Source: Candidatus Nanoarchaeia archaeon
GTDB taxonomy: Archaea > Nanobdellota > Nanobdellia > SCGC-AAA011-G17 > GW2011-AR18
Assembly (NCBI GenBank): GCA_041648255.1
Contig: JBAZPJ010000006.1
Coordinates: 1 to 21,073 of the forward strand
Direction: 5' to 3'
DNA length: 21,073 bases
Shown: positions 5,209-6,236 of the stretch, one piece after another
Layout: every line of letters starts with the position of its first letter
Numbering within the stretch: the first letter of the stretch is position 1
Notes under the pieces: model-generated
Told to the model about the DNA's origin: nothing
The model's database searches: none
The model's input: only the letters and a program-made list of their open reading frames with translations
Program-made: the position numbers and the translations under genes

Positions 5209-5219
5209 AAATGGGGCGA
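5209..5219. repeat. direct repeat AAATGGGGCGA (copy 1), equal to the reverse complement of the tRNA-Phe 3' end plus TTT
   Basis: Identical 11-mer at 6211-6221. On the minus strand it reads TCGCCCCATTT and here runs straight into an oligo-T tract (TTTTTTTATTTTTT). Confidence 0.55.
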
Positions 5220-5291
5220 TTAAAAGTTTTACATGCGACACTAACGACAACCGCGCGTAACGCTTTTAAAGCAAAAAACTATTAACCTATC
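5220..5291 (+). promoter_or_regulatory. conserved promoter module, copy B (upstream of the LAGLIDADG gene)
   Basis: Gap-free alignment to 3274-3348 with the same 72-nt distance to the ATG. Core CATGCGACACTAACGACAAC, hairpin GCGcgtaaCGC, TATA-like GCTTTTAAAG about 26 nt upstream of ATG 5292. It begins exactly at the end of direct-repeat copy 1. Confidence 0.6.
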
Positions 5292-6236
5292 ATGGATTCT
5301 CTTAAAACACGCTATGGTTCAATTCCTTTCTCCGAGCTTAAAATATTTGATATTCCTGGATATCCTAAAATCCCTTTAAGTAATTATTTTGATAAGCTTG
5401 TTAATCCTCAAATAGATAAGAAAGCTACTAACATAAGAATAGAACTCAAAAACGGCAATCAAATACGAATTTCAACTTTGCAATTACAATCGTTAAATCC
5501 GTCTACACTTAAAACCTTACAAATTCTTAGTTCCCCTCATATTATTACCTATCCAAAATACCTTACACCCAAACTTGCTTATCTTGTCGGCTACCTTTAT
5601 GGTGACGGAGGGTTTAAAGATATTCGAAAAACGTATCTATGTTCAGGTAAATATGAATACAAGATGGTTGTTTCTGATGAGTTTGAATTACAAATTAAAG
5701 ATAGGATACAGGTTCTTTTTAGCGAAATTTTTAATCTTAATGCACCCCTTAGAAGAGAACGTCTCCTTAAAGGAGAGAATTTAGTCTATCTTAATCCTAC
5801 TTGTAAATTGGTTTATATTTTTCTTTCAAGAGTTTTTGACTTTCCAGAAGGAGCTAAAACCACTCTCCACATCCCTCGGCTGATTAAATCCGGCCCGATC
5901 CAAATTCAACAATGGTTTTTAAGAGGATTAATGGATTCAGACGGCGATGTTCGTGCTACGGAAGCTTGGACAGGTAAGTCTACTTCTTCTCCGCGTATAA
6001 AACTTAAACTAGCAGACAGAGTTTTTTTATTGGAAGCACAATCTCTCTTTCGAACAGCTTTTGAAATTAATTTTACCGGCCCCTACACGGATGATTATGG
6101 TGGATGGTATATTCAAATAGGTAAAGGTGGTGTTCTCAAAGCACATTCTTGTTCCCTATTTTATCATCCAGTTAAAGCTTGGAGATTGAATAGATTGAAA
6201 AAAATATTAGAAATGGGGCGAGAGGGACTTCCATGA
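5292..6236 (+). CDS. double-motif LAGLIDADG homing endonuclease, free-standing
   Basis: Two dodecapeptide motifs: LAYLVGYLYGDGGF and WFLRGLMDSDGDV, both keeping the acidic residue. The last 8 codons (6213-6236) are antisense to exon 4 and intron 3 of the tRNA-Phe gene. Flanking sequence looks neither rRNA-like nor intein-like. Confidence 0.85.
   Translation: MDSLKTRYGSIPFSELKIFDIPGYPKIPLSNYFDKLVNPQIDKKATNIRIELKNGNQIRISTLQLQSLNPSTLKTLQILSSPHIITYPKYLTPKLAYLVGYLYGDGGFKDIRKTYLCSGKYEYKMVVSDEFELQIKDRIQVLFSEIFNLNAPLRRERLLKGENLVYLNPTCKLVYIFLSRVFDFPEGAKTTLHIPRLIKSGPIQIQQWFLRGLMDSDGDVRATEAWTGKSTSSPRIKLKLADRVFLLEAQSLFRTAFEINFTGPYTDDYGGWYIQIGKGGVLKAHSCSLFYHPVKAWRLNRLKKILEMGREGLP
6211..6221. repeat. direct repeat AAATGGGGCGA (copy 2), overlapping the tRNA-Phe acceptor 3' strand
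   Basis: Identical to 5209-5219. On the minus strand it is TCGCCCC (positions 66-72) plus A73 plus TTT. Confidence 0.55.

What the first reader, a model, noticed from the sequence alone, without database searches (positions are those of the whole stretch)
5209..6221. About 1 kb single-gene LAGLIDADG segment flanked by an 11-nt direct repeat of the tRNA-Phe 3' end
AAATGGGGCGA occurs at 5209-5219 and at 6211-6221. On the tRNA strand this is TCGCCCC-A-TTT, that is, the acceptor 3' strand, the discriminator and the start of the terminator. The distal copy (5209-5219) runs directly into a long oligo-T tract, as an original tRNA terminator would. The proximal copy completes the functional tRNA. The 1002 bp between equivalent repeat positions hold only a promoter module and the LAGLIDADG ORF, whose last 8 codons read antisense into the tRNA.

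This looks like the att-type duplication left by insertion into a tRNA 3' end, but with no integrase. The only cargo is a homing endonuclease. An 11-mer repeat could arise by chance in 21 kb, but its GC-rich content and exact placement make chance less likely.
Basis: partly seen in the sequence, partly recalled or inferred. Interest (0 to 1): 0.7.

Follow-up and report, generated by a model that had tools for sequence, protein, structure and literature searches.

The report
Homing-endonuclease cassette docked on tRNA-Phe
A 1-kb selfish gene cassette encoding a DNA-cutting LAGLIDADG enzyme sits at the 3' end of a three-intron tRNA-Phe gene in a DPANN archaeon, bracketed by a duplicated tRNA end. 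Relatives show that this enzyme family always sits next to tRNA-Phe and moves between genomes, which may bear on how odd tRNA introns spread in archaea.

Summary
AAATGGGGCGA occurs exactly at 5209-5219 and 6211-6221. The segment between holds one promoter module and one intact two-motif LAGLIDADG ORF (5292-6236). The proximal copy is the 3' end of a minus-strand tRNA-Phe(GAA) (6356..6214). ARAGORN and Rfam miss this tRNA because it carries three introns.

Every one of about 20 lineages of this small protein family, across five DPANN groups, abuts tRNA-Phe. About 18 lie on its 5' side on the same strand, with no repeat. Only the window and its sister locus L016 lie on the 3' side, convergent, and both have the tRNA-end repeat. 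L039, syntenic with L016, keeps a 17-nt repeat around a 60-nt remnant.

Mobility is supported in three ways. Two genomes about 80% identical in flanking genes share a 98.5% identical cassette plus tRNA. A close relative (L047) has an empty site. One copy is a pseudogene.

Best reading: a free-standing homing-endonuclease cassette aimed at the tRNA-Phe locus, here inserted into the tRNA 3' end with regeneration of that end. The enzyme's target, and how the repeat arose, are inferred. In L047, with the cassette absent, the tRNA carries different introns and another LAGLIDADG gene sits beside it. This hints at intron-endonuclease cooperation.

The parts
5197..5208 (-). Oligo-T tract (TTTTTTTATTTTTT together with the repeat's TTT) directly after the distal repeat. 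It is terminator-like trailer of a tRNA 3' end.
   Evidence: Sequence. The distal copy in L016 has the same A-run.
5209..5219 (.). Distal copy of the direct repeat AAATGGGGCGA (minus strand TCGCCCC-A-TTT). It lies 72 nt upstream of the ORF start.
   Evidence: Equivalent copy in L016 at 3908-3923, 77 nt before its ATG.
5226..5275 (+). Promoter module: conserved upstream motif (ttttacatgcgacactaacgacaaccGCGCG) plus TATA-like TTTTAAAG about 25 nt before the ATG.
   Evidence: Aligned with upstream regions of other family members. CGCGCG occurs only here in the 21 kb. A near-identical module precedes LAGL314 in L003 and a different LAGLIDADG gene in L047. Promoter function is inferred.
5292..6236 (+). 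LAGLIDADG endonuclease ORF, 314 aa ('LAGL314'). It has two motifs (LAYLVGYLYGDGG, WFLRGLMDSDGD). Its tail (MGREGLP-stop) is read antisense through the tRNA 3' end.
   Evidence: D105 and D217 invariant; I-DmoI E=4.5e-5; pLDDT 89.9; Foldseek: intein-associated LAGLIDADG enzymes, I-DmoI, I-Tsp061I.
6211..6221 (.). Proximal copy of the repeat. It is the 3' acceptor strand, A73 and 3 trailer bases of the functional tRNA-Phe.
6214..6356 (-). tRNA-Phe(GAA) gene with three introns. Exons: 6356-6353, 6320-6306, 6288-6248, 6227-6214. Introns: 6352-6321 (32 nt, acceptor stem 4/5), 6305-6289 (17 nt, D-loop), 6247-6228 (20 nt, T-loop).
   Evidence: In-silico splicing gives an ARAGORN tRNA-Phe cloverleaf. 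The D-loop and T-loop introns fold as helix / 3-nt bulge / 4-bp helix / 3-nt bulge. A homologous acceptor intron is present in L039 and L046. Exact splice sites are inferred.
6462..7229 (+). Second LAGLIDADG-type gene ('w255', motif LAGIIADLMGDGHL), divergent from the tRNA 5' side. It is context, not part of the repeat-bounded segment.
   Evidence: (114 homologs, many with Pfam LAGLIDADG_3). In 5 of 5 contexts it lies next to a minus-strand tRNA-Phe.

Best explanation
The segment is a free-standing LAGLIDADG homing-endonuclease gene cassette, made of its own promoter module and the ORF. Its family is tied to the tRNA-Phe(GAA) gene of DPANN archaea.

Shown:
- The enzyme is intact, with an I-DmoI-like fold and both catalytic Asp residues.
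- The family always abuts tRNA-Phe.
- Close relatives differ in whether they carry it.
- A near-identical cassette plus tRNA sits in two otherwise diverged genomes.

Inferred:
- The enzyme cuts cassette-free tRNA-Phe loci, and break repair copies in the cassette together with the adjacent tRNA.
- The resident copy escapes cutting because the insertion and/or the tRNA's introns split the recognition site.

In the window's lineage the cassette lies on the 3' side of the tRNA, pointing towards it. It entered within the last 8 bases of the tRNA gene plus 3 trailer bases. A second copy of that end keeps the tRNA whole, which leaves the 11-bp direct repeat. The distal copy with its oligo-T run is either the displaced original end or an end carried along with the cassette. 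In the second case it could serve as the far-side homology arm where flanking genes are not conserved.
For: Enzyme:
- Two LAGLIDADG motifs with invariant D105 and D217.
- Profile hit to I-DmoI.
- Confident model matching monomeric LAGLIDADG endonucleases.

Linkage to tRNA-Phe:
- The ORF is directly followed by tRNA-Phe(GAA) in L001-L032, which come from Woesearchaeota, Nanoarchaeota, Diapherotrites, Iainarchaeum and Micrarchaeota.
- The ORF often ends on the tRNA's U8-A9-G10 as its TAG stop codon.
- Upstream neighbours vary: GlyRS, tRNA-Lys pairs or tRNA-Asn.

Mobility:
- L001 vs L008: the ORF is 98.5% nt identical and the promoter-to-tRNA region 96-100%, against about 80% for GlyRS. Identity stops exactly at the tRNA 3' end.
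- Empty sites: L047 (flanks 87-88% nt, GlyRS 96% aa identical to L003) and L041 have GlyRS followed directly by tRNA-Phe.
- Decay: an in-frame TGA in L021, and a 60-nt remnant between 17-nt repeats in L039.
- The family is rare: 12 clusters at 90% identity and 28 representatives at E<=1e-30 among 1.84 billion.

The 3'-side arrangement with repeat:
- Window, L016 and L039.
- Window and L016 are sisters, with bootstrap 72/100.
- Cassette-free L036, L045 and L046 keep the frame '<-tRNA-Phe, w255->'. So the tRNA orientation is ancestral and the cassette is the variable part.
Against: - No cleavage assay exists, and the recognition site is unknown.
- Classical homing leaves no target duplication, and LAGLIDADG cuts give 4-nt overhangs, not 11. 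The origin of the repeat is therefore unexplained in detail.
- The repeat's inner boundary differs between loci (8, about 10 and 17 tRNA bases).
- The family tree broadly follows host groups and upstream context, so much of its history may be vertical.
- Only one clear recent-transfer pair was found.
- No close relative of the window organism is available, so there is no strict empty site for this exact locus. The nearest w255 homolog is 61-62% identical.
- Metagenome contigs could in principle be chimeric.
Confidence: 0.6

Rival explanations
1. Att-type integration: a small element was inserted into the tRNA 3' end by a tyrosine or serine recombinase supplied in trans, or since lost. The 11-mer is the att core and the endonuclease is just cargo.
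For: Direct repeats of a tRNA 3' end flanking an insert that regenerates the tRNA are the classic integrase footprint. The variable length of identity resembles att cores.
Against: No integrase lies in the segment, and none was recognised among the window ORFs scanned. The same gene family normally sits on the 5' side without any repeat. The L001/L008 transfer has its edges at the GlyRS stop codon and the tRNA 3' end, as gene conversion would give. No relatives were found in viral contigs.
Confidence: 0.12
2. Domesticated host gene: the LAGLIDADG protein is an old, vertically inherited DPANN gene with a host role linked to tRNA-Phe, such as regulation. The repeat is a by-product of a local rearrangement.
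For: The ORF is intact with strong residue conservation across five DPANN groups. Clades follow upstream context and taxonomy. A conserved palindromic promoter module suggests regulation. The tight overlap with the tRNA's 5' end is conserved.
Against: Presence/absence between close relatives. A 98.5% identical cassette in an 80% identical background. A pseudogene and a remnant. Extreme rarity. Replacement by unrelated LAGLIDADG genes at the same tRNA.
Confidence: 0.1
3. tRNA flip: the ancestral same-strand arrangement was converted by inversion of the tRNA body between the two acceptor-stem strands, which form an 8-bp inverted repeat. This put the tRNA on the other strand, and the distal 11-mer is unrelated.
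For: The ORF tail is joined to the same sequence ATGGGRCGA in both arrangements: sense 5' acceptor in L001, antisense 3' acceptor in the window. The base before G1 is T in most overlapping same-strand loci, mirroring A73.
Against: A flip does not create the distal copy. Cassette-free relatives already have the tRNA in this orientation relative to w255 and to the 705-750 aa gene. w177 synteny does not fit a simple flip.
Confidence: 0.05
4. Chance: the 11-mer repeat is a coincidence in an AT-rich genome.
For: 321 distinct 11-mers recur in the window, and about 2.6% of window pairs 1 kb apart share one.
Against: This specific G/C-rich 11-mer appears in only 12 of 2000 shuffles, with an expectation of about 1e-5 at the right place. 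The repeat recurs at the same boundaries in L016 and L039.
Confidence: 0.03

Closest known systems
Archaeal intron-encoded LAGLIDADG homing endonucleases (I-DmoI, I-Tsp061I, I-PorI type)
   Same: Monomeric two-motif LAGLIDADG fold with catalytic acidic residues. These are the closest sequence and structure matches. They are archaeal and associated with a stable-RNA gene that carries bulge-helix-bulge introns.
   Different: Those enzymes are encoded inside rRNA introns. Here the ORF lies outside the tRNA, has its own promoter, is sometimes antisense, and carries an extra ~90-aa N-terminal beta-rich domain.
Free-standing phage homing endonucleases and 'collaborative homing' (F-CphI next to the psbA intron; T4 mobE with I-TevIII; SegB in the T4 tRNA cluster; PMC2790892, PMC6083498, PMC13096335)
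   Same: A free-standing endonuclease gene sits beside the gene it is thought to target. Identity is mosaic around it. The neighbouring gene carries introns that differ between cassette-plus and cassette-minus alleles.
   Different: Those are GIY-YIG, HNH or EndoVII-type enzymes in phages, with self-splicing group I introns. Here it is a LAGLIDADG enzyme in archaeal chromosomes with protein-spliced tRNA introns. Cleavage at an intron insertion site is untested.
tRNA-targeting integrative elements of archaea (SSV- and pNOB8-type; model in PMC3293823)
   Same: Insertion into a tRNA gene end, duplication of the tRNA end and regeneration of a functional tRNA.
   Different: There is no integrase. 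The insert is only 1 kb with a single gene. Most family members lie at the other end of the tRNA and have no repeat.
Yeast HO endonuclease (free-standing LAGLIDADG enzyme derived from an intein; from my own knowledge)
   Same: It is free-standing, and the best Foldseek hits are intein-associated endonucleases that cover the N-terminal region too. JGI names one member 'intein/homing endonuclease'.
   Different: No splicing residues or zinc finger were tested here, and there is no evidence of a host function. The intein origin is only a lead.

Membership tests
LAGLIDADG homing endonuclease (monomeric, two-motif) | Two LAGLIDADG motifs, each ending in a catalytic acidic residue | tested here: met
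   LAYLVGYLYGDGG and WFLRGLMDSDGD. D105 and D217 are invariant in 12 sequences.
LAGLIDADG homing endonuclease (monomeric, two-motif) | Pseudo-dimeric alpha-beta-beta-alpha-beta-beta-alpha fold | tested here: met
   AF2 pLDDT 89.9, pTM 0.91. Foldseek gives I-DmoI TM(target) 0.70-0.76, plus I-Tsp061I and PI-PfuI. The Pfam LAGLIDADG_3 hit is only sub-threshold (E=6.6e-4).
LAGLIDADG homing endonuclease (monomeric, two-motif) | Site-specific double-strand cleavage of a long target | not testable with these tools
   Needs a protein assay. The target is unknown.
Mobile homing-endonuclease gene | Presence/absence polymorphism at one fixed genomic site among relatives | tested here: met
   L003 (present) vs L047 (absent; flanks 87-88% nt) and L041. 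Remnant in L039.
Mobile homing-endonuclease gene | Mosaic identity (co-conversion tract) around the gene | tested here: met
   L001 vs L008: 96-100% across cassette plus tRNA against 65-85% in the flanks. This is one pair only.
Intron-encoded archaeal homing endonuclease | ORF located inside a bulge-helix-bulge or group I intron of the host RNA gene | tested here: not met
   The ORF lies outside the tRNA (5292-6236 vs tRNA 6214-6356) and is antisense to it. The introns are 17-32 nt. No group I intron was found by Rfam.
Integrase-borne tRNA-integrating element | Tyrosine or serine recombinase gene in the element | tested here: not met
   The repeat-bounded segment holds one ORF, the LAGLIDADG gene.
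Integrase-borne tRNA-integrating element | Direct repeats of the tRNA 3' end flanking the insert, with the tRNA regenerated | tested here: met
   Window 11/11. L016: 11 exact, extended with one indel. L039: 17/17.
Collaborative homing (free-standing endonuclease plus protective intron) | Free-standing endonuclease gene adjacent to an intron-bearing target gene | tested here: met
   All loci.
Collaborative homing (free-standing endonuclease plus protective intron) | A particular intron is co-inherited with the endonuclease gene | tested here: inconclusive
   A D-loop intron is present in 20 of 21 LAGL314 lineages (not L014) against 2 of 6 cassette-free tRNA-Phe genes (L036 and L045 yes; L039, L041, L046 and L047 no). 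There are two different D-loop positions and no phylogenetic correction.
Collaborative homing (free-standing endonuclease plus protective intron) | The enzyme cuts the intron-less allele at the intron insertion site | not testable with these tools
   Needs a cleavage assay.

The most novel reading that the evidence does not exclude
The tRNA-Phe gene of DPANN archaea may be a battleground for several unrelated free-standing LAGLIDADG endonuclease cassettes. At least four families were seen here, sharing one promoter module. Each would travel with its own set of short bulge-helix-bulge introns in the tRNA, and those introns would break that enzyme's recognition site. In other words, protein-less archaeal tRNA introns would be mobilised by 'collaborative homing' with a neighbouring endonuclease gene. 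That would give a concrete mechanism for the gain and turnover of non-canonical tRNA introns in Archaea. The tRNA-end repeat would be a portable homology arm.
Probability: 0.3. Interest if true: 0.85.

Novelty: new variant of a known kind. Interest (0 to 1): 0.7.

Why it matters
Free-standing homing endonucleases are well studied in phages, but I found nothing in the searched literature linking LAGLIDADG genes to tRNA genes in DPANN archaea. Here a small family is locked onto one tRNA gene across five DPANN groups, with evidence of recent lateral movement.

Closely related genomes differ both in which endonuclease gene flanks tRNA-Phe and in which introns the tRNA carries. How archaeal tRNA genes gain introns at odd positions is an open question. 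This locus makes one answer directly testable with a few cleavage assays.

It also shows that standard tRNA finders miss these genes, so tRNA-Phe probably goes unannotated in genomes where it carries such introns.

Tried and rejected
- ARAGORN (also with intron options) and Rfam at gathering and E<=10 thresholds found no tRNA in the window. This was resolved by manual exon assembly.
- My first regex for the upstream motif was mis-specified and uninformative. It was replaced by an alignment.
- My first NJ tree used a wrongly trimmed window protein. It was redone.
- I first called the upstream synthetase ProRS. Source names show it is GlyRS.
- A fuzzy search for degenerate tRNA-end copies downstream of all tRNA-Phe genes has a background of up to 35%. 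The weak hits in L003 and L046 are therefore not counted.
- No relatives were found in viral contigs.
- An intron-encoded ORF, a group I intron, an integrase, a tRNA flip and chance were each considered and judged unlikely. The reasons are given under the rival explanations.
- No close relative of the window organism exists in the collections (best neighbour protein 61-62% identical). A strict empty site for this exact locus could not be obtained.

Full report
**What is at the coordinates.** AAATGGGGCGA occurs exactly twice on the + strand, at 5209-5219 and 6211-6221. Between the copies lies one ORF, 5292-6236, of 314 aa. Upstream of it is a TATA-like box about 25 nt before the ATG and a G/C-rich element. 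That element holds the only CGCGCG in the 21 kb.

The window comes from a 'Candidatus Nanoarchaeia archaeon' MAG. The ORF is 100% identical to NCBI locus tag WC595_00795. The context is chromosomal and archaeal: a class I aminoacyl-tRNA synthetase, an eRF1/Pelota-family protein, ScpB and glycosyltransferases. GC content is flat at about 36%.

**The tRNA.** ARAGORN and Rfam report no tRNA anywhere in the window. Read by eye, the minus strand 6356..6214 is a tRNA-Phe(GAA) broken by three insertions:
- 32 nt in the acceptor stem (GGGG|...|CGG);
- 17 nt in the D-loop;
- 20 nt in the T-loop.

Removing them gives a 74-nt sequence that ARAGORN folds as tRNA-Phe with a 7-bp acceptor stem. The D-loop and T-loop insertions fold as textbook bulge-helix-bulge motifs, with a 4-bp helix between two 3-nt bulges. 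Cutting after the second bulge base yields the canonical D-loop AGCCTGGGA. So the proximal repeat really is acceptor 3' strand, A73 and TTT. The distal copy runs into TTTTATTTTTT. The ORF's last 8 codons are antisense to the tRNA end.

**Is the repeat more than chance?** Repeated 11-mers are common in this AT-rich window, so the repeat alone is weak evidence. This specific 11-mer, however, appears in only 12 of 2000 shuffles, and about 1e-5 are expected in the promoter-proximal 150 nt. More important, it recurs elsewhere, as described below.

**The protein.** It has two LAGLIDADG motifs with invariant catalytic Asp residues. A profile of the family hits I-DmoI. The confident AF2 model matches monomeric LAGLIDADG endonucleases, including intein-associated ones. 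The family is tiny: 12 clusters at 90% identity and 28 representatives at E<=1e-30 among 1.84 billion.

**Where relatives sit.** I examined 35 loci. They come from Woesearchaeota, Nanoarchaeota, Diapherotrites, Iainarchaeum and Micrarchaeota MAGs and from metagenomes. In every one where the flank is readable, the ORF abuts an intron-bearing tRNA-Phe(GAA).

In about 18 lineages the tRNA follows on the same strand. In many of these the ORF ends on the tRNA's own U8-A9-G10, read as a TAG stop. The upstream neighbour varies: GlyRS, tRNA-Lys(UUU) plus tRNA-Lys(CUU), or tRNA-Asn. None of the same-strand loci has a flanking repeat.

Only the window and L016 have the convergent arrangement on the tRNA's 3' side. 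In an NJ tree these two proteins are sisters, with bootstrap 72/100.

**The repeat recurs.**
- L016 has AAAAAATGGGG at 3908-3918, extended as ATGGGGCGAGG. It is preceded by an A-run and lies 77 nt before the ATG. The second copy is at 4899-4909, at the tRNA 3' end in antisense, 991 nt away. Its distal copy is 18/19 identical to the window's distal copy.
- L039 shares L016's upstream genes (T2SSE, then a 705-747 aa gene at 48% identity) but has no ORF. Instead, a perfect 17-nt copy of the tRNA 3' end (2538-2554 and 2615-2631) brackets a 60-nt spacer. The spacer looks like the two ends of a deleted cassette.
- L036, L045 and L046 have the same frame, a minus-strand tRNA-Phe next to a homolog of window ORF 6462-7229, without any cassette.

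The tRNA orientation is therefore ancestral, and the cassette is what comes and goes. This argues for insertion rather than inversion of the tRNA.

**Evidence that the cassette moves.**
1. L001 and L008 have GlyRS genes 80% nt (83% aa) identical and other flanking sequence 65-85% identical. Yet the stretch from the GlyRS stop codon through promoter, ORF (14 differences in 936 nt) and the whole three-intron tRNA is 96-100% identical. Similarity ends exactly at the tRNA 3' end.
2. L047 is a close relative of L003, with flanks 87-88% nt and GlyRS 96% aa identical. It has GlyRS, then 42 nt, then tRNA-Phe, with no cassette. L041 is a second empty site.
3. L021 carries an in-frame TGA in a conserved motif, and L039 is a remnant.

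Rarity, a fixed site, polymorphism, mosaicism and decay together are the usual signature of a homing-endonuclease gene. No relatives occur in viral contigs.

**An unexpected layer.** The gene on the other side of the window's tRNA (6462-7229) is itself a LAGLIDADG-type protein. It belongs to a larger family (114 hits), and in 5 of 5 contexts it sits divergent from a tRNA-Phe.

L047 lacks LAGL314 but carries a third LAGLIDADG gene (242 aa). This gene is convergent on the tRNA's 3' side, and its tail also reads antisense into the tRNA. Its promoter module (gtgacaaggcatatgtgcgcgcagag..tttaaa) is nearly identical to the one in front of LAGL314 in L003. L040 has a fourth LAGLIDADG gene (211 aa) upstream of tRNA-Phe, with a similar module.

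The two related alleles L003 and L047 encode nearly the same mature tRNA but carry entirely different introns. L003 has one intron, in the D-loop. L047 has none there and three elsewhere. A D-loop intron accompanies 20 of 21 LAGL314 lineages but only 2 of 6 cassette-free tRNA-Phe genes. This fits, but does not prove, a model in which introns split the endonuclease's target and travel with it.

**Mechanism, with its limits.** I conclude that the segment is a free-standing homing-endonuclease cassette aimed at the tRNA-Phe locus. The following points are inferred, not shown:
- that the enzyme cuts cassette-free alleles;
- where it cuts;
- how the repeat arose.

Classical homing leaves no duplication, so the repeat needs a separate explanation. 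One possibility is insertion within the tRNA's terminal bases with a replacement end supplied. Another is that the cassette carries a spare tRNA end, which would act as the far-side homology arm where downstream genes differ between genomes. The conservation of 'A-run+ATGGGGCGA' in both the window and L016, although L016's own tRNA end differs, favours the second idea.

**Comparison and novelty.** The enzyme belongs to the LAGLIDADG family. Its closest solved relatives are intron- and intein-encoded archaeal enzymes, but it is not intron-encoded. Functionally it resembles the free-standing phage endonucleases and 'collaborative homing' (PMC2790892, PMC6083498). The repeat resembles integrase att sites, but no integrase is present. 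Searches of the paper library found no description of LAGLIDADG genes linked to tRNA genes in DPANN archaea. Multi-intron tRNAs in ultrasmall archaea are known (PMC3239211). I rate it a new variant of a known kind, with a more novel reading (intron mobilisation) left open.

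Noticed in passing
window 6214-6356 (minus strand): tRNA-Phe(GAA) with three introns (acceptor stem, D-loop, T-loop) that ARAGORN and Rfam both miss. tRNA-Phe probably goes unannotated wherever it carries such introns.
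   Followed up: yes
window 6462-7229: A second LAGLIDADG-type gene (255 aa) on the tRNA's 5' side, from a family of more than 110 members. In 5 of 5 contexts it lies divergent from a tRNA-Phe. Four of those five tRNAs carry an acceptor-stem intron: window, L039 and L046 share the 3' end ..AACCAGAA, L045's intron has a different sequence, and L036 has none.
   Followed up: partly
window 5226-5275; L003 3940-3990; L047 5945-5985 (rc); L001 3960-3990; L040 5450-5480; L039 2777-2815: A shared promoter module (CACTGGACA/GTGACAAGG, then the palindrome GTGCGCGC, then TTTAAA) precedes unrelated LAGLIDADG genes at tRNA-Phe. It holds the only CGCGCG in the window. It may be an operator.
   Followed up: partly
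L047 5049-5929 vs L003 4001-5090: Two closely related genomes carry different LAGLIDADG genes on opposite sides of tRNA-Phe and completely different intron sets in a nearly identical mature tRNA.
   Followed up: partly
L001 4934-4936, L010, L017, L022, L030, L031 (ORF ends): The ORF's stop codon is the tRNA's own U8-A9-G10 (TAG). 5'-end processing of a co-transcript would therefore remove the stop codon.
   Followed up: partly
window 6248-6254 with 6227 (T-loop); L011 tRNA-Phe: The spliced T-loop reads TCCAAAT, with C where the near-universal U55 is expected. L011 has the same loop without an intron.
   Followed up: no
L021 about 3280: An in-frame TGA (GGA to TGA in the conserved TGPYSD) splits the LAGLIDADG ORF. 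It is a likely pseudogene, or possibly recoding.
   Followed up: no
L040 5508-6330: A 211-aa LAGLIDADG_3 protein (E=3e-8) is followed on the same strand by another multi-intron tRNA-Phe. This is a fourth family at the same tRNA.
   Followed up: partly
L036 4663-6084: A 473-aa protein with a faint LAGLIDADG_3 hit lies directly upstream of a class I aminoacyl-tRNA synthetase.
   Followed up: no
window 12452-13538 (minus strand): An adjacent HEPN-domain protein and nucleotidyltransferase, looking like a HEPN/MNT toxin-antitoxin pair.
   Followed up: no
window 3346-4179: A Bro-N domain protein, a domain common in viruses and mobile elements, about 1 kb left of the cassette. No link to the repeat was found.
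   Followed up: no
window 18802-18812 (minus strand): A one-mismatch copy of the 11-mer (AAATGAGGCGA) inside overlapping ORFs. It is probably chance.
   Followed up: no
window 4192-4725: This 177-aa ORF has homologs a few genes downstream of tRNA-Phe in L003, L005, L009 and L010. So part of the neighbourhood is conserved despite the different cassette position.
   Followed up: partly
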